Positions 14,759-51,867 of a DNA stretch of 64,000 nt are shown here, one piece after another. This DNA is from Naegleria gruberi (lineage: Eukaryota), in the NCBI GenBank assembly GCA_000004985.1, contig GG738851.1; one strand, written 5' to 3'. The notes beneath the pieces were generated by a model. That model made no database searches. It saw only the letters and a list, made by a program, of their open reading frames with translations, and was not told where the DNA came from. How positions within the stretch are numbered: the first letter of the stretch is position 1; every line of letters starts with the position of its first letter. The translations under genes were made by a program, and so were the position numbers.

Positions 14759-14877
14759 GACTACAGCACCACAGGTTCCCAAGTTGTCTCCAACCTCAGT
14801 ACTGATGTGGCTCGACGATGCTTAACTTCTCAAATCGGACGGGATGAGGTGCATTCATCGTGATATGGCCGTAGCCA
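14759..14877 (-). rRNA. 5S rRNA gene, copy A
   Basis: The reverse complement reads GGCTACGGCCATATCAC...CCCGTCCGATTTGAGAAGTTAAGC...AGTACTGAGGTTGGAGAC...GGGAACCTGTGGTGCTGTAGTC. Helix I/V motifs and a box-C-like GAAGTTAAGC are present, and TTTTT follows. It is identical to copy B. Confidence 0.9.
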
Positions 14878-15176
14878 TTCATGGTATGAAATCATTCCTT
14901 ATTAATTGAAATACTTTCTTTATGTGTGAAATATACATATGTTTTTCTTTTCAAGACCGGACTTGAAAATTAGGTAATGAGCCTTGAATATCCAATTTAT
15001 GAATCAGACCGTGTATACCTCCTATTGAACATGTTGAATCGAAACGTTGTATGTAGGAAAGTAATTAAGCTAATTTATAGAGCTAAAAGAAATTCCAATC
15101 CGATCATACTTTTTTCCGAAACCACTATCCCAAATCATATTAGAGTTGAAGAACCTTTCAGAGCTTTGTCAAAGGG

Positions 15177-17248
15177 TTAATATTTTTTCTCATTGGAATG
15201 GAGTATGGCATTGGTACTGCCATTAGATTGCATCTTTGAGTTTGGAATAAATCTTCCTTCTCTAGTTTTTAAACTATTTGGAAGCATCATGAATAATTCT
15301 CTTTTTTCCTTGATACCCTGAAGTGAATGATATCCATAGGAATTAAGAAAGAGTTTTCCACATTCTTCCTCGATATTTGAATTATTTTCCAACATGTCAT
15401 ATAGTTCCTTACTAATAAACGTGGATCCTCCCAATGCAATATCTGCTATTCTCGCAGCTAAATTCACTCCAGGTCCAAAGTAATCTGTTCTTTTTGTAGT
15501 TGGATCAAGTTGTGCAGAGTATTCACCTTCACTCAAGAAATGTAATCCCATTCTAACTCTAAAACCATTGAATATTATTTGACCATCGTCGTCCACTGTT
15601 TCTACATTTGTTGGGAATGATAATAGTGATGGAGGCCAATCTTCTTTCATCATACGTGTATGTATCAAATTTACACATTTGACAGCATCTACAACTGATC
15701 CAAAAGCAACCATAAAGGAATCACCTTCTGTTTTAACTTCATATCCATTAAATGCTGTAAGAAGCGACCTCACAATTTCATGATGCCTCTTTATACAATG
15801 ATCCATATCCTCTTTTGGGACATGCTCCCATATTTTGGTTGAGTTTTGAATGTCTGAAAACATTATCAAAATGGGTTTACCAGAAGGTCCTTCTTCAATA
15901 TAACTCATAATCTTGTGCAATTCCCTGTGTTTTCTCACGTAATAACATCTCACACCACCAACCAATGCCAACGTAAAACACAAAGACAATGCAACAGAAC
16001 CCACAGCAATCATTGCATATCCAAACTGTTCCAAATGTGGTAAAGAACTCAGAGTGAGTGTCCCACAGGATATCTGGTTAACAATGCTGTTAACCAAGTG
16101 CTCCTTATATGAGTTTGGAATGGGGGCAAAATAATTAGTCTCAAATATCAGGTCAGATGTTGATGGAGTTGAAATTGTATAAATCCATGATAGAAAGTTG
16201 AATATGAATTTCTTCTTATCGCAACTTGAAAGGGTTTTTCTAAAAAGAAAATAGCTCACACCTGCACAAGGATAGCTTTCTGCGTCTCCATCAACAATTT
16301 CCACAAAATAATTGTCAACAGTTAGAAAATTCTGAGCAGCAGCTTTGAATGAGCTAATGCTTGGAGCTACAGGATTTCCTGCCTTATTAAGTATTTTCGC
16401 AACTGGAATTGACATGAAAGCTGCATCAGCAGGGCTGCCATATCCAATAGAATACTCCAATTTAATAACACTTTCAGTTACAGCAAGACTTGTTAAAACT
16501 GAAACAAAATTGGTACTTGTTATATTCGGAAACATTGTAACTTTACCATATTTCCATAAGGTAGGACTGAAATGTGACAGAGAAGAAGTAAATATACTTG
16601 TAGAACCTGAAGATGTAGATCTTACTATAGGCTGAATAGGATGATTTGGTAATGTTTCACTATTGGTCTGCTGTATTCTGTTGTCATTCCAATACTGAAT
16701 TTCACCAGAGAATATACCAGCAACAGCACTTCTACTCAATATAAGTTGTGACTTAAAGTTGGGAATATTGTACAACAAAGCTACCCCAGAAATAAAGAGA
16801 GGAACCATTTCCAAGTTTTGATCTTCTAGTTCGGTTTTTGTTAAAGAGGTTTCAGAAACTGCAAAATCATAATCTCCTTGTTTTAGTTTGTTAAGCCCTT
16901 CACCAGATCCTAACAGAGTTAACAATCAATAGTTCAAACAAACTTACCCACACTGTCATATAATATTGAGTAAATGGGACTATCTTGAATACTATTGAAT
17001 AACGAAAGCAAAGAATTCATTACTTGCTTTGCGAGAGAACTTCCTCCTCCTCCGACTATTAAACTTGGGATATCATCATTATGATTTTCATTATTTACAG
17101 TAGTGTACAATAGTGATAGTGTTGGGGTTTTGGAACATAAATATACAAATAATAGGGGAATGAGTATAGTGGTCATCAATAGTGCAAGAGTAATAAGTAT
17201 TATTGGTCTCAGTGTGTGAGAATCAGATTCTTTGTGAAATCCTAGCAT
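15177..17248 (-). CDS. receptor-type class III adenylyl/guanylyl cyclase with a PstS-like phosphate-binding (PBP) ectodomain; complement(join(15177..16909,16948..17248))
   Basis: Signal-anchor TM, then an ectodomain with LLGSGEGLNKLKQGDYDFAVSETS (periplasmic phosphate-binding protein signature). A TM follows. The cyclase catalytic core reads FSDIQNSTKIW...VKTEGDSFMVAFG...FRVRMGLH...GPGVNLAARI. A 38-nt phase-1 intron (GTAAGT...GTTAG) on the minus strand joins the two ORFs. Confidence 0.8.
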
Positions 17249-17441
17249 TGATTAAGGTTTGTTTTTTCTAACGTTGTTGATTCATGGTTTATGAAAGGAG
17301 TAACCACATTAAAATCACTGTGTTATTAGAGATAAATTCTCTTTTTTTGTGTTGCTGCTACTGTTTTTGAAACAATCATTTAAGTGATGCATATTTTGAG
17401 CGAGATACCTCTGTAATAATATGCGAGAAGCTTCTTCACTA

Positions 17442-19877
17442 CTACTTTTTGCTTCTTACCTTTTGTAAATAGTTCATTCTCACATTCCTTGTTGCTAAAT
17501 TGTATAGTAAAACTTCATTATAAGAATGAGAAATTGATTTGATATACTCAAAGTCGTTCTTGAGCTCCTCTGCAGCATATGCAAAACTCTCTGGCTGTAG
17601 TCTCACTGCCAAAGCAACAAGATCTCTATTGCTTTTCAAAGTAGCAGATGCATACTGGAGATTGGTTGGATCGCAACGTATTGCTTGTGCCATTAAATTC
17701 GAATCATTCCTTAATCCTTCTGATGCATATTTAATAAGCTTTGTAAACTGACTACTGTAATAAATTTCAAATATCTTCTTAAAGAAATCTATATTGTTGG
17801 AATATTTCAAAATATGTACTAAGATCTTGTCTTCACATGACAAATATTTTGGTAACAGGGAGCAGAGATTATCTGTTGTGACCATCAGATTCGGTACAAA
17901 CTCTAAGATGGGAACCTTATGTGCAATCAATGTAGAAGCACAATAATACCTCAAATATTCTGAAAGAATACCAAATAATGGCACAGGAATTGCTTTTGAA
18001 ATAAAAAGGTCGCTAACAATAGGTGCATGGTCTTCCCCTAAATAATAAAGAATAGAAGGAGCTAAATCCTTTGGGAATGAATGGCAGACAAAACTGTAAG
18101 CATGTTCATAGAGAGTGGGATCTAACAGAATTATTGCAGCCGCAACAATGTATTCATATTCAGAAACTGCTCTTTTGAATAGTTTTAGAAAGTCCCATGC
18201 ATCGTTGGTTAATTTACTTGCCTCCTTCAGAACAAAGTCTTCATTGAAGAGTAAAACTGGACTTGCAAAGTAGAGTAGCAGAAACTTCTCATTCTCATAA
18301 TTATTGGAACACATTCTGTATAGGTCAATCAGGGAGGTTTCGTTATCTTTTGCAAGGATGTGAACTATAATATTAGACCGTAATTGCTTTGCAGAAACCT
18401 TATTAGTGATTGCTGTTTCAATGGCCAAACGAATAATTTCAATATTTCCTCTCAGGTTTGAAGATAAATGTGAAAACAGAAGTGGATTCTTTTCAATACA
18501 CAAGCTCATGAAATCAAAATCATTTCGTAATTCTTCAGAGCCGTATTGTAATATTGATTCATTGTAAGAAAATATTTTCCAAACAAAATCTCTACTATTC
18601 TTCAATTCTTCAGATACATACTGGAACATACCAATATCCAATTTGATAAAATTTTCTGAAAGATTAGCATTATTCCTAATACAATATGGAGCATTCTTAA
18701 AAACAGTCATATTTTCCAAATCACCAGTCAGTGAATAATATTTTGGATTTTGTTTGATATTGTCTTCCAAGTATAAAATTATGCGTGGGTAGAGGGTTAT
18801 TAACATTGAGGTTGTCTCATCACTCGATCTGATTCTATTTGATGCATACCTGATATTCTTAATATCATGAGAGACTGCAATCTTTACCAACTCAAAGTCA
18901 TCTCTAATCTCATCAGAACACAATTCCAATAGAGAAGGATCTCGTTCCAATACAATGCGCATTAAATTGTTGTCATTGTAAATATTTGTTGGAAGGAGAG
19001 TTGAAGGCAACATTCGTTTTTGAATTGCAATTGACCAAAATTCCTCACCTTGGCTCTTATAATAAGTTTCGAAAATCCACCTACTTCCTTGAGTGTCAGC
19101 AACATTTATGCTAAAATCTAAGGTGTTACGAACTAGTGGTGAAACATCCCATAACCGATTGGGACTTGTATTCAGAGCAATTAATGCTATTTCTTGGTCA
19201 AGCTTGAACTTGTTGTCTAAATAGGCCAAAATGGCCCCATGATAACTGACAGCCTGCTTGACTAATTCTCTATTACTTTTAAATTGGGTAGCTGTAAAAA
19301 TCAATTCCTTATCTTCCCTCAATTTTTCATCAGTACAATATTTGAGAACTCTTTTTGGATACCTGAATAATTGAACTAAACCATCATGAATACAGTCTGA
19401 ATGAGAAAGCTTTTTCCACACTTTGTGAATATCATTTCCACAATCACCTATATCCAATGCAATTTCTATTAACTCTCTATCAGATCTCAATAATTCAGAA
19501 GCATATCTAAAGAATACTTGCTTCTCTCTTATTAGCTCCTTCATCAATTCCCTATCATTTTTCATTGTATCAGAGGCAAATATTTCAAAAAAGTACCATC
19601 TCAACTTTGCTAATCTCTTCACAAACGTGTAATCTTCCAAATATTGTGGAGGGATAGGATTTTTTCTTACAAATCTTCTCATTGATCTATCAGACCATTT
19701 TTTTTTCTCTAATTTCTTCAATTTATCTAGATAATCTAATTTTCCAATATTTTGTTTAATACTATCATGCCTAAATTCTTTAAATTTTTGAAAAATAGAA
19801 TTATTGGAGTAAAAATCGGAATCTAGTTGTGAATTATTGGGCAGATAATCTAGGACGAGGACATGTTGTTTCTCCAT
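17442..19877 (-). CDS. DUF4116-repeat protein (paralog 1)
   Basis: Repeated about 30-aa units: NDRELMKELIREKQVFFRYASELLRSDRELIEIAL and LQYGSEELRNDFDFMSLCIEKNPLLFSHLSSNLRGNIEIIRLAIE. Confidence 0.6.
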   Translation of the reverse strand: MEKQHVLVLDYLPNNSQLDSDFYSNNSIFQKFKEFRHDSIKQNIGKLDYLDKLKKLEKKKWSDRSMRRFVRKNPIPPQYLEDYTFVKRLAKLRWYFFEIFASDTMKNDRELMKELIREKQVFFRYASELLRSDRELIEIALDIGDCGNDIHKVWKKLSHSDCIHDGLVQLFRYPKRVLKYCTDEKLREDKELIFTATQFKSNRELVKQAVSYHGAILAYLDNKFKLDQEIALIALNTSPNRLWDVSPLVRNTLDFSINVADTQGSRWIFETYYKSQGEEFWSIAIQKRMLPSTLLPTNIYNDNNLMRIVLERDPSLLELCSDEIRDDFELVKIAVSHDIKNIRYASNRIRSSDETTSMLITLYPRIILYLEDNIKQNPKYYSLTGDLENMTVFKNAPYCIRNNANLSENFIKLDIGMFQYVSEELKNSRDFVWKIFSYNESILQYGSEELRNDFDFMSLCIEKNPLLFSHLSSNLRGNIEIIRLAIETAITNKVSAKQLRSNIIVHILAKDNETSLIDLYRMCSNNYENEKFLLLYFASPVLLFNEDFVLKEASKLTNDAWDFLKLFKRAVSEYEYIVAAAIILLDPTLYEHAYSFVCHSFPKDLAPSILYYLGEDHAPIVSDLFISKAIPVPLFGILSEYLRYYCASTLIAHKVPILEFVPNLMVTTDNLCSLLPKYLSCEDKILVHILKYSNNIDFFKKIFEIYYSSQFTKLIKYASEGLRNDSNLMAQAIRCDPTNLQYASATLKSNRDLVALAVRLQPESFAYAAEELKNDFEYIKSISHSYNEVLLYNLATRNVRMNYLQKVRSKK

Positions 19878-20012
19878 TTTTTTTAATTTTCACTTTTGAA
19901 AATGCACAATTTTCTAATACCATTTTTGAGCATTATTTTCGCGCCAAATGTAATTGACCATTACATAATGTCTATACCTGTCATCAATGTCTATTGACAA
20001 ACAAGAATAAAA

Positions 20013-20549
20013 ATGAGAAAAAGAGGTGGTACAAGTGCTAGTGGAATTGCTCCAGGAACATCCCATCAATTTGGAGAATTTACTGTCACAATGCTTTCTC
20101 AAACAGTAACTCATCCTTTGCAAAGTAATATTGCTGATTATTTCAATAGAACTAGTGGTGGAAATTCATGTTGTAGATCTTGTGGCGAATTATCCAAACC
20201 TAACCTATTCCTGTTTGGAGAAAATATCTATTGTGCAAGATGTTCCAATGAAATGAAACGATTCTACATGGAAAGTTACAAGCAGAAAGAAGATATGAGA
20301 GAAAAAGCTTTGGCATGTCAAAGAGAATTGGACAAACCTCAATCGGCATTTGCTAGGACCATAGTAATCCGTTCACCTGTTTCTTCACCACAAGCTAGTG
20401 AAACCTCAACAGTGAGAACAAGAGCCAGAGGATTTTCCTCAGTCCTGGCAATATCCCCTCATTCTCGATTGACCACTGCTCTACCAAGTAGTGCAGGAAG
20501 TGGTGGAGCTGAATTTTCATCACCTCTATGCTCTCCAGTTCTAAAATAA
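20013..20549 (+). CDS. hypothetical protein with a Cys4 zinc-ribbon-like motif
   Basis: CCRSCGEL...(17 aa)...CARCSNEM. The C-terminal part is S/T/P-rich. Confidence 0.4.
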   Translation: MRKRGGTSASGIAPGTSHQFGEFTVTMLSQTVTHPLQSNIADYFNRTSGGNSCCRSCGELSKPNLFLFGENIYCARCSNEMKRFYMESYKQKEDMREKALACQRELDKPQSAFARTIVIRSPVSSPQASETSTVRTRARGFSSVLAISPHSRLTTALPSSAGSGGAEFSSPLCSPVLK

Positions 20550-21052
20550 TTTCCTTTTCCTCCTCTTTTCTATTTCAAACAATTCTATTGTTCTTATTGG
20601 CTTTACCCGATATTCATTCTTTTGCCTTTTCAATCTCCTAGATATATTGTACCATATCATTCTCCCCTAATATAATCATTTAATAAAACCTCTCAAAACC
20701 TGTAGATTTAATCTTTTTCCGTGATGATGGCATGAAGCCTTGAAAGAGAAATTGAAGTATTTTTGTTTTGCTTGATTTTCTTCGCGCCAGTGGAATTTCC
20801 ATTCAAAAAATAATCATCAAAGCCTGTTGTTATTTTTCATCATCACAAAAACCAATTCTCTACAACATTTCAAGTTGAGGTTGGCCAATTGTACAAGCAT
20901 CTATTTCTGAGGAAGATTTAGATACGTGGCTGAAAAGATTTGTTGTTCTTGTTGATTTATGAAAATAATTATTTCGGAATCTTTTTGAATAGAAATAATA
21001 ATATTATAATACGAGAGTGATAGTAAATATTTGATAATAATTAAATTACAAT

Positions 21053-23323
21053 ATGGGAATTCAAGGACTGTTGCCACTTTTTAAAAACCATTGCAAAAAG
21101 GGCCACGTTTCCGAATTAAAAGGACAAAAAGTTGCCATTGATGCCTATGTTTGGTTGCACAGAGGAGCCTACAGTTGTAGTGCAGAATTGTGTCAAAACA
21201 AACCAACAGATAAATATTTGGGTTATTGTATGCATATGGTGAATATGTTAAAACATAACAAGGTGATACCTGTACTTGTTTTTGATGGAGCTAGACTTCC
21301 TTCAAAAGCAGACACTGAAAGTGATAGAAGATCTAGAAGAAAAGAAGCTCTAGAACAAGCACAAATTCACTTACAAAATCACAGATACGAGCAAGCTAAC
21401 GAATGTTTTAGAAAGGCTGTTGATATCAAACCTTCAATGGCATATCAGTTAATATCACAATGTAAAAAAGAGGGTGTGGAAATAGTAGTAGCTCCGTATG
21501 AGGCTGATGCACAATTGGCTCATTTGGCTAGAACTGGGTATGTCTCATGTGTGATCACAGAGGATAGTGATCTGATACCTTATGGAGCTCCAAAAATATT
21601 TTTCAAAATGGATAAATACGGCCATGGAACATTACTCAATCTTGCCGATATCAATCATACACCAACAGCGAATGGAAGTACGGATTTTTCAAAATTTACT
21701 CACGATATGATGATGAGGATGTGTATTCTTTCAGGATGTGATTATTTGAGCTCGCTTTCTGGAATTGGACCGAAAACAGCCTACAAGATCATTAAGGAAA
21801 ACAGGACAGTTCCTAAAATTATGGAGGCATTGAGAAAATTGGGAAAGTTCAAGAGGCAAGAGAATACTCAGCCAAGTAGTCAAGAGATATCATCCTCTCC
21901 TTCGCTTTCCTTACCTCAACCCAGCTCAAGTCAAGATATTTCCGTTTCTGAAGAAGAGTATAGAGAAGCATTTGTTAGAGCCGAGTTGACATTTAAACAT
22001 CAACGAGTATTTGACATCCTTTCACAGGAAATGAGATGTTTAACAGATCCGCCTTCCTGTCTTACGGAAGAGGATATTTACTTTTGTGGACCAACAAAAC
22101 CAACAGATATAGTAGTTCAGATATGCACAGGTATGATAGATCCCATGTCTCACAAACCATTCGTTTCTGCTCCGTCATACGCCTCGAAAAGCTCTGTAAG
22201 TTTTAATAGTTTTTCATATCTTACCTGTATATTAGAATTTAACACCACTAAAAACAAACACAATTCAAACCTATTTCAGTAAGTAGTATGGCTGTAGACA
22301 TTTTCTAAAACTGTAACAGCACCAGTAGCGACAACTCCAAAACAAAAATTCATTCCACCACCTTTTAAAGTTCCATTCAAAACACCATCTCAAGAAACTC
22401 CTTCAAAATCACAAGAAACTCCAACATCTTCATCTACTCCAACAACAGCTAAAAAGATTACAAGCAAGTTTTTCACACCCAAAGAAGCATCAAGTTCTCA
22501 AAGTTCTTCTTCGACGCCTGTTAAACCAGGAAGTTTGACAGTAATAATTCCTTCTCAGGAAGAAAACTCAAAAGAAGCTACTGGCAGTGCAAGCAAAAAA
22601 TCATTGTTTAGTGCTTTGTTCACCAGTTTATCCCAGGAGGTGTCAAACTCACAAGAGGTATCGAATGGATTTTCTACAACCATATTTTCAGACGATCTTA
22701 CTACTGCCCTGATTAGAAATGAGAAGAAACAACAGGCAATGAAGAAAGTGGAAGAGGAGGAAGACATTGATTTGGATGATTTTGAATTGGATCCTCCTTC
22801 TCCTGTTTTATTGAAAACACCTTCCAGATCGGCTGAACCTTTAATTGAACAGACGGCATCATCATCAAATTCCAGCATCAAAAGGCCACTTTCTGCATCA
22901 ATATTATCTTCATCATCCACCAAGAAAGCTAGCCCTCCTCTAACCTTGACAACTTCTGCATCAGAAAGTTCATTAAAGAGAAAAAGCTCCTTCTTAGATA
23001 GATTCAAAAAGACACCAAGTAGTTCACAGAAAGAAAGTTCTCAAGGCACTCCATACCTTAGCTCTTCTCAAAATTCAAGCTCTTCTTCTGAACCTGCCCG
23101 ATCAACAATACCTTCTGCAGATGCATTCATGTATGATTTGTCGTCTGACGATGAATTGGAGCCAGTTCCAAAGAAAACCAAACAATCGACCTCTGTTGCT
23201 GCAGTCGTTGAAATTATATCGAGTGAGGATGAGAATGAGGAGGAATCAAGAACTGTTAGTCCTCAAGAGGAAAAGAATGTTTTTGAACTCTTTCTGTCGT
23301 ATGAATCAAAAAAATTTCAATAA
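21053..23323 (+). CDS. EXO1: exonuclease 1 (XPG/Rad2 family); join(21053..22195,22298..23323)
   Basis: XPG-N begins MGIQGLLPLFK. XPG-I reads VVAPYEADAQLAHLARTGYVSCVITEDSDLIPYGA. The H3TH motif is ILSGCDYLSSLSGIGPKTAYKII. The long disordered S/T/P-rich C-terminal region lies in exon 2. The 102-nt intron (GTAAGT...TGTAG) is phase 0. Confidence 0.85.
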
Positions 23324-23336
23324 TAAACTAATTTAT

Positions 23337-26207: not shown

Positions 26208-26602
26208 CTTGATTAGTTTCGTCTAGTTTCGTAAATACGAAATTATTTTGGTCTACTAGATGAGAATAATATTATAAAAAATTTAGAAGGCTTTTTGATG
26301 ATGTGCCTTCCGTAATTTGTTGTAGGTGCGTTTTTTTTGTGGTAGAAAACCAAGGACTTGACATTTGACGGGTGGTTATAATTTTTCAAAAGCAAAACCT
26401 TAAAAATATAATCCCAGACCTCCAAGTTGCAATGTGTTCAAATAATTGAAATCAAAATATCCCGTCGAAACAGTTCCAAAGAAAAGTTACTTGGTTTTTA
26501 TTAAGAATTCTACCTTAACAGTACTTTAGTCCAATTTCTAATATTGGAAGATATTTAAAGATATTTTGATAGTATCTGTTGTAAAATATTGGAAATTATT
26601 GT

Positions 26603-42626: not shown

Positions 42627-44597
42627 ATGATAAGCTTGAAAAAAACCAATGATCTTCACAGTCATTTCTTTAACATTTTGGAGTTACCAGAAATTGTTAC
42701 TCACATTTTCCGAAATTTAGATATAGAAGAAAGAGCAAGAAAAAGACTTGTTAACACAACATTTAATCATGTCTATTTAATTGAAGAGGAGAATGAAATG
42801 TTGCAATTATGGAAGAAGTACGAGAGTGGATATTGTGGTGGTTATTATGTAAAACCACTCAGTGACGAAGAGTTGATAGCTTTGGAACAACAATTTGACA
42901 TGAAGATGCAATATCATTTGAAGATTTGGTTGACCAAGTGCTCAAATGGAAGATTTGAATGGCAACAATCATTGCTATCAATTGCAAATACTGGAGATTG
43001 GGATTATATCATTAATTCTCCATGTTTACAGAAATGTAAATTTGAATTGATGGATCATTTTGGTGATGAGATAGAAAACTTTATTTGTGTCCATTTCTCG
43101 TCCAGAGATCTCTGTGTAATGGACAAAAGGAATGGTAAATTCTACCATTCCTCGAATGCTGCTAGATTATATTGGAAGCAGATAGGTTATATTAGGGAAT
43201 GGTTAGAAAACATTTCGTATGATATTCTGTATCCATTATCTGAATTGAAAGGTGATCATATCAGTGCTCAGTTTTACAAATACTCGGAAGATATCAAGAA
43301 ATTGACCTCTGAAGGCAATATGAATGAATTTCTGAGATTTATCTCTGCAAGTCCTCAATCCTATTCTTTATTGAGTAATGAATGGAAGGGAAAGGAAGAA
43401 GTAATTGGAGCACTTTTATCAAATAATTATGAGGATCCTAATGGGTTCTTTTCACATTTACCAGCTCACATTCCATTTGATTTGAGAAATGACAAGGAAT
43501 TTTTATTGAAATACTTTAAAATAGCCGACTTTTGCTATTACATTCCAACAAAATTGAGAAATGACAAGAAATTTATGAAGAAATTAATATTACAATATAA
43601 TACTTGTTTCAATATAGGAGCCTTGCCAAAGGATATTCTCAGAGATACTGAAATATTAAGGTCACTTTCTGATAGTATTCTCTTAAACTCTGAGGTCCAA
43701 GAATATGTTGATTGGGAGTTTGAAACTGTTGAGCAAGTTAAAACTTTCTTTACTCAGCACCCAGAATCACATATTTCAATTCCATTCATTTCAGATACTA
43801 TCCTGAATGATAAATCAGCAATGATCGATATTTTGAATGAGGTCTATAATCTTGAACTTAAACCAGAAGATACATTGAATGATTTATCAGCGATTGAAAA
43901 AATTGTAAATGAATCCTCACCAATGGTTCTATCTATTGTTGATGAATCCATCAGAAACAACAAAGAGTTTATGATGAAGCTTGGGGAAATTTCTTTAATG
44001 TTTATTGGAAATGAATTGAAAACAGATTTAGATTTAATTTCTAGTGCAAAACCGACAGTACTGAAAAAATTGAATCTCATCATGTCAAAACAAGAATTTC
44101 TAGAATTATTAGAAAGGATTCAAAAAGCACCAACTATCCAATTCAAATACCTACACAATTTGAATTTATTTGACGCCTTGAAATATCAAATTCCCAGAGA
44201 ATATTTCAATGATCCAGAGTTTGCTTATGAAACCTATAGAATTACATCAGCTTCAGAACAATATTTAGGGAAAGTTGCAAAACAAGATTTTAATTTATGG
44301 ATTCGACTTGCACGAATGGAATTGGATTTATATGGAGCTCCTCCAGAACTGTTGGTTACAAATAGAGATCTTGCCTTTCAAAACATCTTTTCACCAATGG
44401 ACTTGCCCGATGATTTGATTTTTGATGAAGATTTTATGATAACGTGGATGGATAACCATCAGGAAATCAATGGTTTTGTTTGTTTGCCAACAAAGGCAAG
44501 AACAAGGAAGCTCTTTAAACACCTTCTTGTTAAGCATCCTTATTTGAAAAAGTTTGGTCCACCAGAATGGTTGGAAGAAGAAAAACCAAGTAAATAA
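42627..44597 (+). CDS. DUF4116-repeat protein (paralog 2)
   Basis: Repeats such as DLRNDKEFLLKYFKIADFCYYIPTKLRNDKKFMKKL and ESIRNNKEFMMKLGEISLMF. Confidence 0.55.
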   Translation: MISLKKTNDLHSHFFNILELPEIVTHIFRNLDIEERARKRLVNTTFNHVYLIEEENEMLQLWKKYESGYCGGYYVKPLSDEELIALEQQFDMKMQYHLKIWLTKCSNGRFEWQQSLLSIANTGDWDYIINSPCLQKCKFELMDHFGDEIENFICVHFSSRDLCVMDKRNGKFYHSSNAARLYWKQIGYIREWLENISYDILYPLSELKGDHISAQFYKYSEDIKKLTSEGNMNEFLRFISASPQSYSLLSNEWKGKEEVIGALLSNNYEDPNGFFSHLPAHIPFDLRNDKEFLLKYFKIADFCYYIPTKLRNDKKFMKKLILQYNTCFNIGALPKDILRDTEILRSLSDSILLNSEVQEYVDWEFETVEQVKTFFTQHPESHISIPFISDTILNDKSAMIDILNEVYNLELKPEDTLNDLSAIEKIVNESSPMVLSIVDESIRNNKEFMMKLGEISLMFIGNELKTDLDLISSAKPTVLKKLNLIMSKQEFLELLERIQKAPTIQFKYLHNLNLFDALKYQIPREYFNDPEFAYETYRITSASEQYLGKVAKQDFNLWIRLARMELDLYGAPPELLVTNRDLAFQNIFSPMDLPDDLIFDEDFMITWMDNHQEINGFVCLPTKARTRKLFKHLLVKHPYLKKFGPPEWLEEEKPSK

Positions 44598-44844
44598 AAA
44601 CTTGAGAGTCAATAAATTAAAATCTTATTACATTGAAAGTTTAGAAACAATGGCACAATTCATTTCAAATAAAGTTAAAATGGTGATTTAACAAAAATGT
44701 GATATTTCAATTGTTGTAATTAAGTTGCAATGGTTCAACACAAATATTTCCACAAATACAAGGAAGTTGTTTACAATTAAATCTTGACAAGCTTCAACAC
44801 CAATTATCAGTACCAACTACTTTCCTTTTCAATATTTAAAAAAA

Positions 44845-47580
44845 ATGAAAAGAACAAGGGACGAATTTACCAACTCATCGTCGGACGATGAAGACACTTC
44901 TCAGCATGAAGATGATTCACCACCGACAAAGAAAGAGAAGGAAACTCCAAAATATCGTCCTCCAATTGGTGCACTCTTGGTTGCAGGTTACGGAGCATGT
45001 GAGGACGAATTTACAATTTTCACACTCGATCAAGCAGATGATTTGGAGAATACTAGAGGCAGATTCCCATATAGAGATTATAGAGATGCTTATGAAAGAA
45101 AGAAGGAGAGAAACATTCGGTCATGGACCGATAATTATGTGAAGAATGATGACGATCGTGATCGTGATGAATTGTCCTATTTACAAATTCCTAGTCAAAA
45201 TCTTATCAAGCAAATTCCGTGTGAAATTCTACTCGATTGCATGTTTTATATGGACAAGTATGCATTGTTTAATTTTATTCAAACATGCAGTTTAGTTTAT
45301 GAATTGTTTGATGAGGTTTATGGAGAAAGTATTGAACGGCTACGTCTTGATATTCTCAATAAGAAGAGGAGTGCTGGGAATTTGAATAGGTTGGTGGATT
45401 TATTCTCCAATTCATCAAGTTGGAATGAGAGTTTAGTTCAAGATTCGAATAAGAAAGTAATGATGACCTATGATCAATATTTTAGAATGAAGAGTTCAAG
45501 CAAGTGGCCAACTAGTTATTTTCACGATCATTTGAAGTTTAGAACATTTAAGAAGGATGATCCAATGATTGACCTAATCAACAATCAGGCACTTACAGAT
45601 TCTCTCAAATTTCAGGAAATGAGCTTTGAAGAGTATATCGATTTACAAAAAGATAGCACACCAATATTACCGTATGGATTACTCACTCAACCAGACACAT
45701 ACTATCTAACTTTTGACAATTTTGTAAAGAGAAGATGTTCATTACTAAATTTTGAGCAATTTGCATTGGAAGGTGATGATAGGTATAAATCATACATTGA
45801 TGGTTTATTGAAGGTGGAAACTGTCATCCTTCCTCATACGTATTCAGATCTTGAGGAAGTGAATGGTTCCTTGTCAGGTTACTCCTGGTATCCATACTTC
45901 ACAAAGTATCAAGATTATCATTTTTATATGGACAGTATTTCAGAAAAAAAAGATCTTCCAAAACGTTATGAAAAAATTGTCAGATTCTTTAAGAATCCTT
46001 ATGAAATGACATTTTCAGATTTTCAAGACAGATTCAAGAATGAAATTTTGAGAGATTATGAATTAGCAAGAATCTTATTTTATGATTGTGCATTTGAACA
46101 TAACAAAACAACCAAGACAAAGGAACGTTTTGTTATATCAGGAGGATCCCTTCTTCACACCTTGACTGGTTGTGGTTTCAGTGATTTTGATTTATTCATC
46201 ATTAATAATGGAGAATCAGACGAAATTATCACTCAAGCAATCAAACAAGTTTTATTGAAATTGGAAGGAAAAACTAAACATTTGAATTACAATATTATGA
46301 GTTCCAAAGCTACAATTAATATTTGTCAAGAAGGGAATGAAAACATTCAGATAGTATTATTGAAATATGATACCATTGAGGAATTGCTCTTATTTTTTGA
46401 TTTGGATTGTTGTAAACTGGTCTATGATGGAGAGAGAGTATTAACAGTTTTAGAATGTTTACGATCCCTCAAGTACAAGATTAATTTTATCCACAGAGAA
46501 TCAGGAGGAAAAAGTGAAGTCCACCATGAAAGAGCTTTAAAATATGGAAATAGAGGTTTCTTAACAATTGTTGCTGATTCCTTTCATCCTCTTTCTCATG
46601 TAATGCATTGTGATTTTATTGTAGAAAGAATTCGAAAGATACTCATTGAAAAGTATGCCAAACAAATGCAAAGTGAGGGAATTAACACTCGATACAATAA
46701 TCCAATGGTTGATTTGTTTATTGGTAGAAACAAAACAACTTCAGAAATTGCTACAGTAGACTTGGACGAATCTAATTTGCTCTATCCTGTCGTTTTGAAG
46801 AATATTTCATTTAAATTCGTGGAACAATGCTTGACAAATGGACTTCTCTTTGCCGTCAGAGAAATGGAAAGCGAAGTTGAGGCTGAGAAAGAAATGCTGA
46901 AACGTTTGAAACTGGACGAATATGAATTTGCGAAAAATCCATCAGATCTATTTCAAATTCTTCCAGAAAATCAAAATCTTGTGAAAGCCAAATATTCCTA
47001 TAGTCATTTAGTTTGCAAGTTTTCCATTGTTCATTGTCAAAACTGTTCTATTTACTTTTATTGCCCATTTGCTTCATCTGTGTTAAGGGAACAACGAAAA
47101 AAGGATAGTTGTAATGGACATTTGATACCATTTTTGGAAAATCAAGTTACAAAAGAAAATTACGATCCGAAAATTAACACACTTTGTCAATCTTGCTTGA
47201 ATCAATTGAATTGTTTGGAGAAATATGATGATTTCATTTTATATAAGGAATATAGAAATACAAGATTTGTGGAAAATCAAATAGAGACTAAAATAATTCA
47301 AACTATTTACAAAATTGAAAAGATTGAAAACCTTAAAGGAGTATCACAGGATAGAATACTTCATCTTTTATCAAAAACCTTTTCACTACCTGATTTGGAA
47401 TATACTTTGAAAATTTTGAAATTTAAAGAGCTTGTAATAAGCAGCCAAGAGGAAGACGAAATCAAGTTAACACTTCGCTCTTTATTACCAATCTGGTCAT
47501 ATAGCAACAAGATTGTGGTTCCAATCCCAATATCTGAAAAGAAACAAAAGGTTATTCTTGATTTCTTCAAGAAAAAGTGA
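44845..47580 (+). CDS. hypothetical large protein with an F-box-like motif
   Basis: A 911-aa ORF. IPCEILLDCMFYMDKYALFNFIQTCSLV is F-box-like. The N-terminus is acidic, and a Cys-rich segment (HCQNCSIYFYC) lies near the C-terminus. Confidence 0.45.
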   Translation: MKRTRDEFTNSSSDDEDTSQHEDDSPPTKKEKETPKYRPPIGALLVAGYGACEDEFTIFTLDQADDLENTRGRFPYRDYRDAYERKKERNIRSWTDNYVKNDDDRDRDELSYLQIPSQNLIKQIPCEILLDCMFYMDKYALFNFIQTCSLVYELFDEVYGESIERLRLDILNKKRSAGNLNRLVDLFSNSSSWNESLVQDSNKKVMMTYDQYFRMKSSSKWPTSYFHDHLKFRTFKKDDPMIDLINNQALTDSLKFQEMSFEEYIDLQKDSTPILPYGLLTQPDTYYLTFDNFVKRRCSLLNFEQFALEGDDRYKSYIDGLLKVETVILPHTYSDLEEVNGSLSGYSWYPYFTKYQDYHFYMDSISEKKDLPKRYEKIVRFFKNPYEMTFSDFQDRFKNEILRDYELARILFYDCAFEHNKTTKTKERFVISGGSLLHTLTGCGFSDFDLFIINNGESDEIITQAIKQVLLKLEGKTKHLNYNIMSSKATINICQEGNENIQIVLLKYDTIEELLLFFDLDCCKLVYDGERVLTVLECLRSLKYKINFIHRESGGKSEVHHERALKYGNRGFLTIVADSFHPLSHVMHCDFIVERIRKILIEKYAKQMQSEGINTRYNNPMVDLFIGRNKTTSEIATVDLDESNLLYPVVLKNISFKFVEQCLTNGLLFAVREMESEVEAEKEMLKRLKLDEYEFAKNPSDLFQILPENQNLVKAKYSYSHLVCKFSIVHCQNCSIYFYCPFASSVLREQRKKDSCNGHLIPFLENQVTKENYDPKINTLCQSCLNQLNCLEKYDDFILYKEYRNTRFVENQIETKIIQTIYKIEKIENLKGVSQDRILHLLSKTFSLPDLEYTLKILKFKELVISSQEEDEIKLTLRSLLPIWSYSNKIVVPIPISEKKQKVILDFFKKK

Positions 47581-47699
47581 AAATCCTTAATACATTGAAA
47601 TATGGTAATGTACAAAGCAGTGTGTATTAAAGGAAGTGAAATGTTATGGAGAGATGCCATAAATAACAAGGTTCAAGATTTTATTACATTTTTTCAATG

Positions 47700-47830
47700 T
47701 TTATACTGGAATGATTACAAACGATTCGTTTCTATCGCTAACACACATTGACATAACTTGTCAACAAGAACTACACACAACTTGACACAGCATGTGGTAC
47801 ACATTGATTGGCTTGTCATTAGTTGACCAA
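47700..47830. promoter_or_regulatory. cluster of TTGACA/TGTCAA palindromic half-sites upstream of the beta-helix gene
   Basis: TTGACATAACTTGTCAA (a perfect inverted repeat with a 5-bp spacer), ACTTGACACAG and CTTGTCATTAGTTGACC lie within 130 bp, about 60-180 bp upstream of the ATG at 47882. Confidence 0.3.
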
Positions 47831-47881
47831 CACAAAATGGGTGAACTGGACACTAATTTGTTGTGCTAAATAACAAAAAAA

Positions 47882-49723
47882 ATGAAACTGTTCGGTCTTG
47901 TTGTTATTTTACTAATTGTGTTCAGTCAACTGACCAATGGTTTAGATTATGTATCAATTTCTGACTATGGCGCCATCGCGGATGGTATCACAGATAACAC
48001 TGCATTCATTAGCAAGGCAATTTCTGATGCAAAGGCCAAGAATTTAACACGAGTTTATGTGCCTCCATCTTCCAAACCATATCTTCACAATAATTTAATT
48101 ATTCTTGATGGTATTTTGTTATATGGTGATGGATACTTGTCATGGTTGCATGGATCTAACACTGAAGCATCACCAATCAAATTGATTGGAAACAATTCAG
48201 GTGTTAAAAATCTTCGGTTGACCAGTATAGATCAGAACAGAAGAAGTGTTCCATGGGCCACAACTGTTTGGTGCTATTTTGCAACTAATTTTCTTGTAGA
48301 TAACATTTGGGCTGAACCAATGGATGGAAAAGGTTACACTTACAATACAACACTTGTTCATGGAGTTGGTGGAATTTTCATTTATGGTTGTGAAAATGGA
48401 ACCGTTTCGAATAACAATTTGAATTATACATATGCTGACAGTATTCACAATACTCACACTACCAAATCAGTCCAAATTTTCAATAATATGATTGAGAATA
48501 GTGGAGATGACGGTATTGCTTCTGTTTCTTATAATGGAAATGAAATTAACCGAAACTTGGTTATTTTCAAAAACTATGTCAAGGGCAATAGATGGGGAAG
48601 AGGTATTACAAACATTGGAGGTGATCAAATCATTATTGAGGATAATACAGTTGAAGCTGGAACTGCTGCAGCAATTTGGTTGGCAGCTGAATATTATTAC
48701 AATACTCTATCTCCTTCCAATACGATTGTTAGAAGAAACAAAGTAATAAGAGCAGGATCAGCTGATGGGAAATGTTATGGGCCTAATACGATTCCATCTA
48801 TGGGTATTAATAATTCTAATTTTCCATTTAAGGCAAATAATATTCAATTTGTGGACAATGTAGTTATGGACTCATGTTTGGATGGAATTGTAATTGGTGG
48901 AACTGATGTCAAGAACGTTGCCATTGCTGGAAACACATTCATTAACCAAAGAGCTGGTGCATTCTTCACAACAAGTAATTCCTCTCAAATTTTCTTCCTC
49001 AACAATCGTGTAGAAAATTCGAGTATCAACTCTATTGTTACCATCAATTATCAAGATACCTTAATCATTGATGGAAATACTCTCGTCAATGCCATTACAA
49101 ATATGCAAGGCAGAACACAAGTTGTCTATATCATTAAGGCAGGTCGAGTTCAATTTACAAATAATAGATATTCACAATATGTTCCAACTGGATCCAATAC
49201 AATAATTCAATTAGGATCTGCTGATTCAGTTGTTAATGATGATAGCGACTCGAAGCTTTCAACTAAGGTACCAAGTAATGTTGCTTCCTTTGCCATTCCA
49301 ACAATTCAGGATTTGGAATTTAATTTTACAACTAATGGAAATGTTGTAACAGTGACAGAATCTCAAATTCTCTCCAAACTTTCATTGGATTCTTCATTGT
49401 TTTCTCTATTAGTTGGATTTTCTGGTGTTGGTGGAAAGGTTGATACCAGTTTCGATAGAAAAACCATGACATTTAGTTTTTCAAATGATTTGAAAAGTGG
49501 CACTTTCAAATATTCAGTTCAATCTGTATTGGAATCTTCTGCTCAAACAGCTAATATTAGAGTGAATAGAATTGCAATTCCAATAGTTGCAGAATCGTCA
49601 AAGCCAAAACCAAAACCTTCTTCAAGTTACATTAATAAGGCAGTCTCTGATGGAAGTACTATTTGTTTTGCTCACCAATTGATTGTAATTGTACTCAGTT
49701 TTATGCTTGTATTACTCTTTTAA
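47882..49723 (+). CDS. secreted right-handed beta-helix protein (pectate-lyase-3 / GH55-like), likely GPI-anchored
   Basis: Signal peptide, then DYVSISDYGAIADGITDNTAFISKAI. Many beta-helix repeats follow (NNLNYTYADSIHNT..., VKGNRWGRGITNIGG...). The C-terminal tail is hydrophobic. Confidence 0.7.
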   Translation: MKLFGLVVILLIVFSQLTNGLDYVSISDYGAIADGITDNTAFISKAISDAKAKNLTRVYVPPSSKPYLHNNLIILDGILLYGDGYLSWLHGSNTEASPIKLIGNNSGVKNLRLTSIDQNRRSVPWATTVWCYFATNFLVDNIWAEPMDGKGYTYNTTLVHGVGGIFIYGCENGTVSNNNLNYTYADSIHNTHTTKSVQIFNNMIENSGDDGIASVSYNGNEINRNLVIFKNYVKGNRWGRGITNIGGDQIIIEDNTVEAGTAAAIWLAAEYYYNTLSPSNTIVRRNKVIRAGSADGKCYGPNTIPSMGINNSNFPFKANNIQFVDNVVMDSCLDGIVIGGTDVKNVAIAGNTFINQRAGAFFTTSNSSQIFFLNNRVENSSINSIVTINYQDTLIIDGNTLVNAITNMQGRTQVVYIIKAGRVQFTNNRYSQYVPTGSNTIIQLGSADSVVNDDSDSKLSTKVPSNVASFAIPTIQDLEFNFTTNGNVVTVTESQILSKLSLDSSLFSLLVGFSGVGGKVDTSFDRKTMTFSFSNDLKSGTFKYSVQSVLESSAQTANIRVNRIAIPIVAESSKPKPKPSSSYINKAVSDGSTICFAHQLIVIVLSFMLVLLF

Positions 49724-49779
49724 AAACAAATCATTTAGATAATTCTAAACATTAGAATAAAAAAACAAATCATTTATGA

Positions 49780-50577
49780 TTATTCCCAAACTCTTTGATT
49801 TTTCAATAGACAACACAGAACCAATTCATGTCCAAATGGTTTGGATGTATCTTCAAAACATTCTTTCAATGTTTTACCATCATAATTGTATCCATCAAAT
49901 CCAAGAATTTGAATATTCATTCCACTATTGACCATTTCTTCCAGTTTCTTATAAGCTTCAGTTTCGACAACTTTCTCAGCATAAAGTGGACAATAAATTT
50001 TCCTTCTAGCTTGCATATAATTAAATTTCTCTCCCTTCCACCATGAATACAATGGTTTCTCCCTCTTTACATGTCTATGAGCTTTCTCATCCTTCCATCC
50101 TTTTGTTCTTCTTTCAAAAAACTCAGAATTTGGAACTTTGGTCAATTGACCATTATCATTTCTAACTTGTTCCTCTTCTCCTGGAAATACCTTTGAAAAT
50201 TGCCATAAATTCTCCAAATTTGTAATTGTACACTTCTCACTTCCATGTTCATATTCATATGGGCCTAATTTCATTGGTGACAATTCCTTGAATATTCCAC
50301 TAGCTCCAGAACAACAATTTACATTCTTGTAACCTGTCACGATTGGCCACTTTTTATTTCCCTTTGAGAAACGACCTGGTAATTTATCGCAACGAACATC
50401 TCCTTTGGAATTTCTCTTCTTATTCAATTCTTGTTGTTTCTTGACGGATTGATCGTGTTGTTTCTTTGCTTGTTTTTCTAGATCTTGTTCGGTGATTTCA
50501 ATGACTTCATTCTTTTTCTTCTGTTTGATGGTTTGCTTTTTCTTTGTTGTGTTGTTACTGGTTGATTGTTTGCCCAT
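49780..50577 (-). CDS. hypothetical basic protein
   Basis: A 265-aa ORF with a K-rich N-terminus. The C-terminal GKTLKECF...PFGHELVLCC is weakly DUF4326-like. Confidence 0.4.
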   Translation of the reverse strand: MGKQSTSNNTTKKKQTIKQKKKNEVIEITEQDLEKQAKKQHDQSVKKQQELNKKRNSKGDVRCDKLPGRFSKGNKKWPIVTGYKNVNCCSGASGIFKELSPMKLGPYEYEHGSEKCTITNLENLWQFSKVFPGEEEQVRNDNGQLTKVPNSEFFERRTKGWKDEKAHRHVKREKPLYSWWKGEKFNYMQARRKIYCPLYAEKVVETEAYKKLEEMVNSGMNIQILGFDGYNYDGKTLKECFEDTSKPFGHELVLCCLLKNQRVWE

Positions 50578-50703
50578 TTTTTTTTGAATATTAATTATTA
50601 ACTAAATGAAAAACTTTGATTTCCATTTATTACTGGAAGTGCAAATTCACCAACTTCAATCAACACAAACATTTTGAACACCGTGTTCTATTTTATAGAA
50701 AAA

Positions 50704-51618
50704 TTAATTCTGTCCATAAACATTAATATCTCTAAAGGTAATATTAAGTCTGGCCGATAACACTCCCTTTCTCTTTGGTACACAATGTTGATAGTGTTTC
50801 TGAGTGGCTCCATTCATAATCAATAAACATCCATTCTCCAATGATTTTGTAATAATTTCACCCTTCTTTTGAATTGGTGATTGAGTTGTATTCGATGAGT
50901 TGGTGTTTTGTTTTGGCATGGGTCTTAATTGAAAATCTCTACTCGCTCCCAATGAAACAGAAGCAATTGAAAAGCCACTTGCTTCTCTATCAGCATGCCA
51001 TCCAATCAGATCATCCCCATCATCATAACGATTAATCAATGCAGCTTCATATTTTTCTCCAATCAATTCTTCCAATCTCTTTTTCAAGTTGAGTAATGGC
51101 TCTGGCCAATCTCTTTGGAGTTTTACCATATCATTATAAACTCGAGAAACACTTCCATCATTTGTATCAACAACAGAATCAGTCTCATTCCTAGTAATGG
51201 GTTTACCAAAGAATGCAACCTTTCTCTTTGAAACAACATCCTTTCCATACATGTTATATTTGGGACTAGTCCACTCACACTTCTCCATCAGACAATCAAA
51301 TAATTCCTTCGATTCCCGTTGGGAGAGAAATCTTTCCATATATCTGACCTGTACTCCAGTATCCTTCTCATTCAGAATAAAGGTAAACTCCTGATTCCGA
51401 TGATGATGAAGATTCTTCTTCTTCAATTCAAATTTCTGTTCATTATTTTCATTCAAAATTATTTCTTCCTCATCATTGATGAGAATTGGATTTTCCGCAC
51501 TCGATGTTAACAGTTCTCTTGATTCTTGCTTGATTTTCTTGGGTGAGGCATTGAAGAAATCGGTGATTGACTTTCTTTTCATTTTTTTTTGAATAGTTCT
51601 AGCCGTCACTCGAACCAT
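50704..51618 (-). CDS. AlkB-family 2OG-Fe(II) dioxygenase (ALKBH2-like) with an N-terminal PIP box
   Basis: PIP-like RKSITDFF. Iron-binding motifs: GWHADRE (HxD), QKHYQH (second His) and RLNITFR. Confidence 0.8.
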   Translation of the reverse strand: MVRVTARTIQKKMKRKSITDFFNASPKKIKQESRELLTSSAENPILINDEEEIILNENNEQKFELKKKNLHHHRNQEFTFILNEKDTGVQVRYMERFLSQRESKELFDCLMEKCEWTSPKYNMYGKDVVSKRKVAFFGKPITRNETDSVVDTNDGSVSRVYNDMVKLQRDWPEPLLNLKKRLEELIGEKYEAALINRYDDGDDLIGWHADREASGFSIASVSLGASRDFQLRPMPKQNTNSSNTTQSPIQKKGEIITKSLENGCLLIMNGATQKHYQHCVPKRKGVLSARLNITFRDINVYGQN

Positions 51619-51749
51619 TGTATTTTCTAGAAACTATGCTTCAGTGGAGAGCTGCTTATAAGCATCTACAATGAAAATAAACCCAACACGTTTATCTATT
51701 TTCCACTAATAGGTATATTAGTTATGATTAAGATTTTACCTCAATGAAT

Positions 51750-51867
51750 GGCTACGGCCATATCACGATGAATGCACCTCATCCCGTCCGATTTGAGAAG
51801 TTAAGCATCGTCGAGCCACATCAGTACTGAGGTTGGAGACAACTTGGGAACCTGTGGTGCTGTAGTC
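51750..51867 (+). rRNA. 5S rRNA gene, copy B
   Basis: Identical over 118 nt to the reverse complement of 14759-14877. Followed by TTTTT. Confidence 0.9.

What the first reader, a model, noticed from the sequence alone, without database searches (positions are those of the whole stretch)
14759..51867. Two identical 5S rRNA genes, dispersed and inverted, 37 kb apart among Pol II genes
The copies at 14759-14877 (minus) and 51750-51867 (plus) are identical over 118 nt. They share 8 nt of 5' flank (ATGAATGG) and a T-run terminator, but the wider flanks are unrelated. The 5S genes are therefore dispersed singletons rather than a tandem array or part of an rDNA unit. Perfect identity despite divergent flanks implies recent duplication or gene conversion. 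The inverted pair could mediate inversion of the intervening 37 kb. Each copy lies next to another Pol III or mobile feature: tRNA-Gly and its insert near copy A, the hAT MITE and tRNA-Val near copy B.
Basis: seen in the sequence. Interest (0 to 1): 0.55.

Follow-up and report, generated by a model that had tools for sequence, protein, structure and literature searches.

The report
Two ordinary dispersed Naegleria 5S genes
The two identical sequences are normal, intact 5S ribosomal RNA genes of the amoeba Naegleria gruberi. They belong to a published family of about 260-280 copies scattered singly through its chromosomes, so the finding is real but ordinary.

Summary
Rfam 5S_rRNA matches the full model at 14758-14876 (-) and 51750-51868 (+), 105.4 bits each. 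The two lie in a perfect 129-nt inverted repeat: 6 nt upstream (ATGAAT), the 119-nt gene, and TTTT. Flanks beyond that are unrelated.

The window is Naegleria gruberi NEG-M scaffold_7:448001-512000. Both copies are already listed in Table S1 of PMC3369914 (279 putative 5S genes). I parsed that table. It gives 264 near-full-length hits on 113 scaffolds, no two closer than 1.1 kb, and a median neighbour gap of 33 kb. The family is dispersed, and a 37-kb gap is typical.

Both genes carry a canonical internal Pol III promoter (box A at 50-64, box C at 80-97) and a T5 terminator.

Identity does not show a recent event between these two copies:
- 161 listed hits share their similarity score.
- A strain 1.8% diverged has copy A at the same site.
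- A different heterolobosean has a 5S differing by 1 nt.

The inversion idea cannot be tested, because short-read contigs break inside the 5S. The nearby mobile elements and tRNA genes are real but lie 0.9-4 kb away.

Verdict: already known, low interest.

The parts
14758..14876 (-). 5S rRNA gene, copy A (119 nt)
   Evidence: Rfam RF00001, 105.4 bits, full model. Listed as R33870, scaffold_7:462757-462873, in PMC3369914 Table S1. Present at the same site in ENA contig L001.
51750..51868 (+). 5S rRNA gene, copy B (119 nt), identical to copy A
   Evidence: Rfam RF00001, 105.4 bits, full model. The MFE fold is the Y-shaped three-helix junction, -41.5 kcal/mol, z=-2.6. Listed as R33584, scaffold_7:499753-499869.
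14877..14882 (-). Shared upstream hexamer ATGAAT (-6 to -1) of copy A
   Evidence: Part of the 129-nt perfect repeat; sequence read. Chance P about 4.4e-4. Function not shown: the metagenomic 5S in L002 has GTAGAT here.
51744..51749 (+). Shared upstream hexamer ATGAAT (-6 to -1) of copy B
14754..14758 (-). T5 run (last base of the 5S plus TTTT): Pol III terminator of copy A
   Evidence: Sequence ...GTAGTCTTTTTCC. That a run of T residues ends Pol III transcription is established knowledge.
51868..51872 (+). T5 run: Pol III terminator of copy B
   Evidence: Sequence ...GTAGTCTTTTTAT.
51799..51846 (+). Internal control region of copy B (box A at RNA positions 50-64, box C at 80-97). The same positions in copy A are window 14780-14827 (-).
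   Evidence: Consensus scan: box A NSYYAANCNNNNNNN matches only at 50-64 with 0 mismatches. Box C NNGRTGGGNGWCCNYNNG matches only at 80-97, with 2 mismatches. Consensus strings taken from PMC3369914.

Best explanation
These are two ordinary, probably functional members of the dispersed nuclear 5S rRNA gene family of Naegleria gruberi.

Each is an independent RNA polymerase III unit of the type-1 kind. An internal control region (box A and box C inside the coding sequence) recruits the Pol III machinery. Transcription starts at or near G+1, which follows a T. It ends in the T5 run directly after the gene. The 119-nt RNA folds into the canonical three-helix junction and enters the large ribosomal subunit.

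The genes sit singly in short intergenic spacers, 131-151 nt from the start codons of unrelated protein-coding genes. In Naegleria the 18S/5.8S/28S genes are on an extrachromosomal circle, so 5S genes are the only rRNA genes on the chromosomes.

The identity of the two copies reflects family-wide conservation: strong purifying selection, possibly helped by ectopic gene conversion. It does not point to a special recent event between them. Copy positions turn over between species, in a birth-and-death pattern.

Shown: gene identity, completeness, promoter-box and terminator motifs, dispersed arrangement, presence of copy A in a second strain.
Inferred: transcription, functionality, and the mechanism that keeps copies identical.
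For: - Full-length Rfam 5S hits at 105 bits and the canonical fold.
- Box A and box C consensus at the canonical positions, and a T5 terminator.
- Organism identified: six window proteins are exact matches to N. gruberi NEG-M proteins on a 693,645-bp scaffold.
- Both copies appear in PMC3369914 Table S1 with a single offset of 448,000.
- That table holds 264 hits of at least 110 nt on 113 scaffolds. The minimum spacing is 1,104 bp, the median within-scaffold gap is 32,967 bp, and no cluster exceeds 3 copies. 161 hits share the modal similarity score.
- Flanking ORFs are ordinary genes: GNAT acetyltransferase, PBP-cyclase, AlkB-like oxygenase, LRR.
- ENA contig L001 is 98.2% identical over 4.2 kb and carries the 5S at the same position. 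The 5S has no differences, while the adjacent spacer has two indels and two substitutions.
- JGI contig L002 has a 5S with 1 mismatch and unrelated flanks. It comes from an organism whose neighbouring hydrolase is at most 68% identical to any relative.
- No 5S was found within +/-10 kb of the orthologous NAT or hydrolase genes in N. fowleri, N. lovaniensis or Willaertia magna.
- The rDNA sits on the extrachromosomal CERE (PMC5805870, PMC10586121).
Against: - No expression data were available, so function is inferred.
- Box C has 2 mismatches to the consensus. PMC3369914 reports finding no TFIIIA in N. gruberi by BLAST, so the exact promoter mechanism is not established.
- The 6-nt upstream identity (P about 4e-4) is not explained by selection on the RNA. 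It hints at shared descent or conversion reaching slightly beyond the gene, or at an initiator constraint.
- An equal similarity score in Table S1 does not prove identical sequence.
- Collapsed tandem arrays missing from the assembly cannot be excluded.
Confidence: 0.88

Rival explanations
1. The identity records a recent event specific to this pair: a duplication of a 129-nt unit, or gene conversion between copies A and B.
For: The pair is 100% identical over 129 nt, including 6 nt upstream of the mature 5' end. Chance P for that hexamer is about 4.4e-4. The metagenomic relative L002 has a different hexamer, GTAGAT, so the hexamer is not strictly required.
Against: - 161 listed hits have the same score and length as these two, so identity is the family norm.
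- Copy A already sits at this site in a strain 1.8% diverged.
- There are no target-site duplications. The best flanking direct repeats (7 and 5 nt) fall within the null distribution.
- No flank similarity was found.
- The 5S differs by only 1 nt in a different heterolobosean.
Confidence: 0.08
2. The inverted pair is a recombination substrate that produces a polymorphic inversion of the intervening 36.9 kb.
For: The arms are 129 nt, perfect and inverted, 36,861 nt apart. Homologous recombination between inverted repeats inverts the intervening DNA (established knowledge).
Against: - No data here show an inverted arrangement.
- 129 nt is a short substrate.
- With about 260 copies, any neighbouring pair would be equally eligible, so nothing singles out this one.
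- N. fowleri and N. lovaniensis share only 2-gene microsynteny with this region, so they cannot serve as an outgroup.
- Contigs from the second strain end inside the 5S, and both arrangements predict the same half-junctions.
Confidence: 0.05
3. The copies are retroposed or transposon-borne 5S-derived elements (SINE-like or pseudogenes) rather than bona fide genes.
For: The shared unit is almost exactly the transcription unit. Mobile elements are active nearby: a hAT-like MITE 0.9 kb from copy B, and an insertion in tRNA-Gly 4 kb from copy A.
Against: - The RNA is full length and canonical, with no appended body, A-tail or LTR.
- There are no target-site duplications.
- The shared unit includes 6 nt upstream of the mature 5' end, which an RNA copy would lack.
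- The sequence is the modal family sequence by score.
Confidence: 0.03
4. One copy is an assembly artefact.
For: None specific. High-copy repeats can be misplaced in draft assemblies.
Against: Each copy is embedded in unique sequence on both sides. Copy A's junction with the NAT-side flank is reproduced in an independent metagenome assembly.
Confidence: 0.01

Closest known systems
N. gruberi 5S rRNA gene set listed in PMC3369914 (PLoS One 2012), Table S1
   Same: These are the same two genes: scaffold_7:462757-462873 and 499753-499869, which equal the window coordinates plus 448,000. That paper also reports the ICR, a TATA-like box and T-run terminators.
   Different: Table 1 of the paper scores N. 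gruberi as 'tandem arrangement: Y'. Its own coordinates show no two hits closer than 1.1 kb and clusters of at most 3 copies at irregular spacing. The paper placed the 5' end 3 nt inside the gene; its BLAST hits span RNA positions 4-120.
Dispersed 5S rRNA genes of Schizosaccharomyces pombe (~30 copies) and Yarrowia lipolytica (108 copies)
   Same: The 5S genes are unlinked to the rDNA and scattered singly through the genome among protein-coding genes (PMC2566860).
   Different: In Y. lipolytica, 48 of 108 copies are fused 3' of tRNA genes and transcribed as dicistronic units. No tRNA lies upstream of either copy here; the nearest are about 3.8-4.1 kb away. The copy number in N. gruberi is higher (~264).
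Dispersed 5S genes of Neurospora and other filamentous fungi, evolving by birth-and-death under purifying selection (Selker et al. 1981; Rooney & Ward 2005; from my own knowledge, not read here)
   Same: Copies are dispersed with unrelated flanks. The coding sequence is conserved while positions turn over. No 5S was found at the orthologous NAT or hydrolase loci in other heteroloboseans.
   Different: Neurospora has several distinct 5S sequence types. By similarity score, N. gruberi appears dominated by one type: 161 of 264 hits.
Tandem 5S rDNA arrays of animals, plants, Trypanosoma and Trichomonas
   Same: The same RNA, the same internal type-1 promoter architecture and the same T-run terminator.
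   Different: There is no head-to-tail repeat unit and no shared spacer. The window holds only these two copies, 37 kb apart and in opposite orientation.

Membership tests
Eukaryotic 5S rRNA (Rfam RF00001) | Covariance-model score above the gathering threshold over the full model | tested here: met
   105.4 bits against a threshold of 38, model positions 1-120, for both copies.
Eukaryotic 5S rRNA (Rfam RF00001) | Length of about 120 nt with a three-helix-junction fold (helix I closing, a II/III arm and a IV/V arm) | tested here: met
   119 nt. The MFE and centroid structures are both the Y-shape, -41.5 kcal/mol, z=-2.6. The cmscan alignment shows all helices paired.
Pol III type-1 gene (5S-type internal promoter) | Box A near +50-64 and box C near +80-97 inside the coding region | tested here: met
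   The box A consensus matches only at 50-64 with 0 mismatches. Box C matches only at 80-97, with 2 mismatches. The intermediate-element pattern is too degenerate to be informative.
Pol III type-1 gene (5S-type internal promoter) | A run of at least 4 T directly after the 3' end | tested here: met
   TCTTTTT in both copies.
Pol III type-1 gene (5S-type internal promoter) | TFIIIA-dependent transcription | not testable with these tools
   PMC3369914 reports no TFIIIA found in N. gruberi by BLAST/PSI-BLAST. I did not re-test this.
Dispersed (unlinked, non-tandem) 5S gene family | Copies do not share a spacer or a regular period, and flanks are unique | tested here: met
   No flank similarity over 1.5 kb on each side. 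There are only two copies in 64 kb. Family-wide, the minimum gap is 1.1 kb, the median is 33 kb, and copies lie on 113 scaffolds.
Dispersed (unlinked, non-tandem) 5S gene family | Not linked to 18S/5.8S/28S rDNA | tested here: met
   No other rRNA hit in the window. Naegleria rDNA is on the extrachromosomal CERE (PMC5805870, PMC10586121).
Yarrowia-type dicistronic tRNA-5S gene | A tRNA gene immediately 5' of the 5S with no terminator between them | tested here: not met
   ARAGORN and Rfam find no tRNA within about 3.8 kb of either copy.
5S-derived SINE or retroposed 5S pseudogene | A 5S-related head with a non-5S body or A-rich tail, plus target-site duplications | tested here: not met
   The shared unit ends at the T-run. 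The best flanking direct repeats (7 and 5 nt, not adjacent to the unit) fall within the null distribution.
Tandem 5S rDNA array | Head-to-tail repeats of gene plus spacer | tested here: not met
   Arrays collapsed in or absent from the assembly cannot be excluded with these tools.

The most novel reading that the evidence does not exclude
The ~260 dispersed N. gruberi 5S genes are kept identical by frequent ectopic gene conversion, with tracts running from about -6 to the terminator. That would explain the shared ATGAAT. The same ectopic pairing would occasionally resolve as crossovers, so that inverted neighbours such as this pair produce inversion polymorphisms.

A related possibility is that 5S transcription in Naegleria is TFIIIA-independent and depends on the upstream hexamer or a TATA-like element.
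Probability: 0.1. Interest if true: 0.35.

Novelty: already known. Interest (0 to 1): 0.1.

Why it matters
It matters little beyond bookkeeping. The two genes, their copy number and their promoter elements are already published for this genome.

Two minor points are useful:
- The published coordinate table shows the family is dispersed, contrary to the 'tandem' entry in that paper's summary table.
- In an organism whose large rRNA genes sit on about 4,000 extrachromosomal circles, these scattered 5S genes are the only chromosomal rRNA genes. How 5S output is matched to CERE output is a fair question, but this window does not address it.

Tried and rejected
1. The look-up of encoding contigs with exact N. 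gruberi proteins (the NAT and the two paralogs of the 522-aa gene) returned nothing. The NEG-M assembly is not in that index, so I could not fetch other 5S loci from the same genome to test conservation of the upstream hexamer.
2. Scans for the 5S core in the bacterial/archaeal genome collection and in viral contigs found nothing. The JGI metagenome scan gave a single contig.
3. Orthologous NAT loci in N. fowleri and N. lovaniensis have no 5S or tRNA within +/-10 kb. Synteny with the window is limited to 2 genes, so they cannot polarise an inversion.
4. The AlkB-like neighbour of copy B has no Naegleria ortholog among the hits, only bacterial AlkB. Synteny for copy B therefore could not be tested.
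5. Orthologs of the hydrolase next to the metagenomic 5S, in N. fowleri, N. lovaniensis, Willaertia magna and one ENA contig, also lack a 5S nearby.
6. The N. gruberi genome paper (PMID 20211133) is not held in the library.
7. I looked by eye for upstream TATA-like motifs. TTAATAA lies at about -29..-23 in copy A, TATATT at about -36..-31 in copy B, and TTATAG at about -23..-18 in L002. Positions differ and the genome is 66% A+T, so I make no claim.
Full report
**Observation.** Rfam's 5S_rRNA model (RF00001) matches the window twice, at 14758-14876 on the minus strand and 51750-51868 on the plus strand. Each match scores 105.4 bits (gathering score 38) and covers model positions 1-120. A repeat search over all 64 kb finds exactly one long inverted pair, 14754-14882 / 51744-51872, 129 nt and 100% complementary, with 36,861 nt between the arms. 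Reading the sequence, the shared unit is ATGAAT, then the 119-nt 5S (GGCTACGG...GCTGTAGTCT), then TTTT. The shared flank is 6 nt rather than 8, because 'GG' is the start of the gene. Beyond the unit the flanks are unrelated: blastn with word size 7 over 1.5 kb on each side gives only short non-collinear hits (best E 0.005-0.06). There are no target-site-duplication-like repeats beyond the null expectation. A permissive Rfam scan (E<=0.1) finds no further 5S copies or fragments in the window.

**Source.** Six ORF translations from the window are exact matches to Naegleria gruberi NEG-M proteins (EFC48489, EFC48496, EFC48369, EFC48367, EFC48366, EFC48370) on a 693,645-bp scaffold. PMC3369914 (PLoS One 2012) searched this genome for 5S genes, and its Table S1 lists 279 hits. 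Two entries, scaffold_7:462757-462873 and 499753-499869, equal RNA positions 4-120 of our two copies with a single offset of 448,000. The window is therefore scaffold_7:448001-512000, and both genes are already on record.

**Genome-wide arrangement.** I parsed Table S1.
- 264 hits are at least 110 nt long and lie on 113 scaffolds.
- Among 151 within-scaffold neighbour gaps the minimum is 1,104 bp, none is under 1 kb, and the median is 32,967 bp.
- The largest clusters are triplets with irregular 2-5 kb spacing.
- Scaffold_7 has 14 copies. The neighbours of our pair lie 49 kb and 44 kb away.

The family is thus dispersed, with some loose pairs and triplets, and a 37-kb gap is typical. The summary table of the same paper scores N. 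gruberi as 'tandem: Y', which its own coordinates do not support. One caveat: arrays collapsed in or missing from the Sanger assembly cannot be excluded here. The 18S/5.8S/28S genes of Naegleria are on a ~14-kb extrachromosomal circle (CERE) present in thousands of copies (PMC5805870, PMC10586121). The 5S genes are therefore unlinked to rDNA and are the only chromosomal rRNA genes.

**Anatomy and likely mechanism.**
- The RNA folds, in both the MFE and the centroid structure, into the canonical Y-shaped 5S structure: -41.5 kcal/mol, z=-2.6 against shuffles.
- Using the consensus strings printed in PMC3369914, box A matches only at positions 50-64 with no mismatch. Box C matches only at 80-97, with two mismatches. 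The intermediate-element pattern is too degenerate to test.
- Both copies end in TCTTTTT, a Pol III terminator.

These are standard type-1 Pol III genes with an internal promoter. Transcription itself is inferred, not shown. PMC3369914 reports no TFIIIA in N. gruberi by BLAST, and I did not re-test that. No tRNA gene lies upstream of either copy, so they are not Yarrowia-type dicistronic tRNA-5S units (PMC2566860). Both copies sit in short spacers between ordinary genes. Copy A lies between a GNAT acetyltransferase (13687-14607, its ATG 150 nt away) and a PBP-adenylate/guanylate cyclase (15177-16925). Copy B lies between an AlkB-like 2OG-Fe(II) oxygenase (50704-51618, its ATG 131 nt away) and an LRR gene.

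**Does identity mean a recent event?** Three results argue that it does not.
1. 161 of the listed hits share exactly the similarity score and length of these two, so identity is the family norm. An equal score does not strictly prove an equal sequence.
2. An ENA metagenome contig (L001) is 98.2% identical to window 10670-14863 and carries the 5S at the same place next to the acetyltransferase. Its 5S part is unchanged, while the adjacent spacer has a 15-nt deletion, a 12-nt insertion and two substitutions. The contig ends inside the 5S and inside the tRNA-Gly, as expected for multi-copy sequences.
3. A JGI metagenome contig (L002) has a 5S with one mismatch in entirely different flanks. It lies next to a hydrolase gene whose closest relatives are only 52-68% identical (Willaertia magna, N. 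lovaniensis, unnamed). The sequence is therefore conserved across species.

The 6-nt upstream identity (P about 4.4e-4) remains the one hint of shared descent or of conversion reaching just outside the gene. L002 has GTAGAT there, sharing only T-5, A-2 and T-1. With three flanks I cannot separate constraint from history.

**Position turnover.** The orthologous acetyltransferase loci of N. fowleri and N. lovaniensis (+/-10 kb) contain no 5S or tRNA and share only two genes of synteny with the window. The orthologous hydrolase loci in N. fowleri, N. lovaniensis, Willaertia magna and one ENA contig also lack a 5S. This fits gain and loss of dispersed copies, but the sample is small (about 100 kb).

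**Inversion hypothesis.** It cannot be tested with the available data. Short-read contigs break within the 129-nt repeat. Both the reference and the inverted arrangement predict the same half-junctions: NAT next to a 5S 3' end, and cyclase next to a 5S 5' end. Only reads spanning a whole copy can decide.

They exist but are not adjacent to the 5S genes.
- tRNA-Gly(GCC) at 10231-10687 (-) is split after position 59 by a 378-nt insertion (10251-10628) flanked by an 8-bp direct repeat, TTCAATTC. It scores only 21 bits as a tRNA and lies about 4.1 kb from copy A.
- A 938-bp hAT-like MITE (52747-53684) has perfect 16-bp terminal inverted repeats (CAGGGGGGCGGAAAGT) and an 8-bp target duplication (AATTTTGG). 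It interrupts the LRR ORF 0.9 kb from copy B.
- tRNA-Val(AAC) is intact at 55679-55752, 3.8 kb from copy B.

Two loci cannot establish an association.

**Verdict.** The 'dispersed singleton' reading is right. The 'recent duplication or conversion' inference is not supported for this pair, and the inversion idea is untested. The genes and their family are already published, so novelty is 'already known' and interest is low.

Noticed in passing
window 10231-10687 (-): tRNA-Gly(GCC) is split after nucleotide 59, in the T-arm, by a 378-nt insertion (10251-10628) flanked by an 8-bp direct repeat, TTCAATTC. The 3' remainder, CCGGTCGACGCA, follows at 10242-10231. ARAGORN calls the broken 5' part a tRNA, but Rfam gives it only 21 bits. 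The insert ends ...CCAAAAAAGGAAAT and has no clear terminal inverted repeats.
   Followed up: partly
window 52747-53684: A 938-bp non-autonomous hAT-like element has perfect 16-bp terminal inverted repeats (CAGGGGGGCGGAAAGT / ACTTTCCGCCCCCCTG) and an 8-bp target-site duplication, AATTTTGG. It is inserted into an LRR-repeat ORF, which consequently stops at 52764.
   Followed up: partly
window 53876-55444 (+): A 522-aa gene with a weak VWA_4 match has paralogs at least 90% identical on two other N. gruberi scaffolds (EFC38673, EFC43143). It is a recently duplicated or mobile gene lying between 5S copy B and tRNA-Val.
   Followed up: no
window 50704-51618 (-): For the AlkB-like 2OG-Fe(II) oxygenase, the best non-self hits are bacterial AlkB proteins (about 36% identity, for example Jiulongibacter). 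No N. fowleri or N. lovaniensis homolog was retrieved. It is a possible lateral gene transfer candidate.
   Followed up: no
window 14570-14604 / 14645-14679: A 35-nt inverted repeat, 86% complementary with a 40-nt loop, straddles the start codon and 5' leader of the acetyltransferase gene. It lies between that gene and 5S copy A. Unexplained.
   Followed up: no
PMC3369914 Table 1 vs Table S1 (N. gruberi genome): The paper's summary table scores N. gruberi 5S genes as tandemly arranged. Its own coordinate list shows no two hits closer than 1.1 kb, a median gap of 33 kb, and copies on 113 scaffolds.
   Followed up: yes
L001 (ENA ERZ929261 contig k127_573689), both ends: A metagenome contig from a strain 98.2% identical to NEG-M ends inside the 5S at one end and inside the tRNA-Gly at the other. 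Pol III genes act as assembly breakpoints in short-read Naegleria assemblies.
   Followed up: yes
window 52240-52810: A tandem 72-nt repeat with 6 or more units at 63-88% identity encodes the 24-aa LRR units (…ISEMKQLTSL…NEIGDEGVKY…) typical of the large Naegleria LRR family.
   Followed up: no
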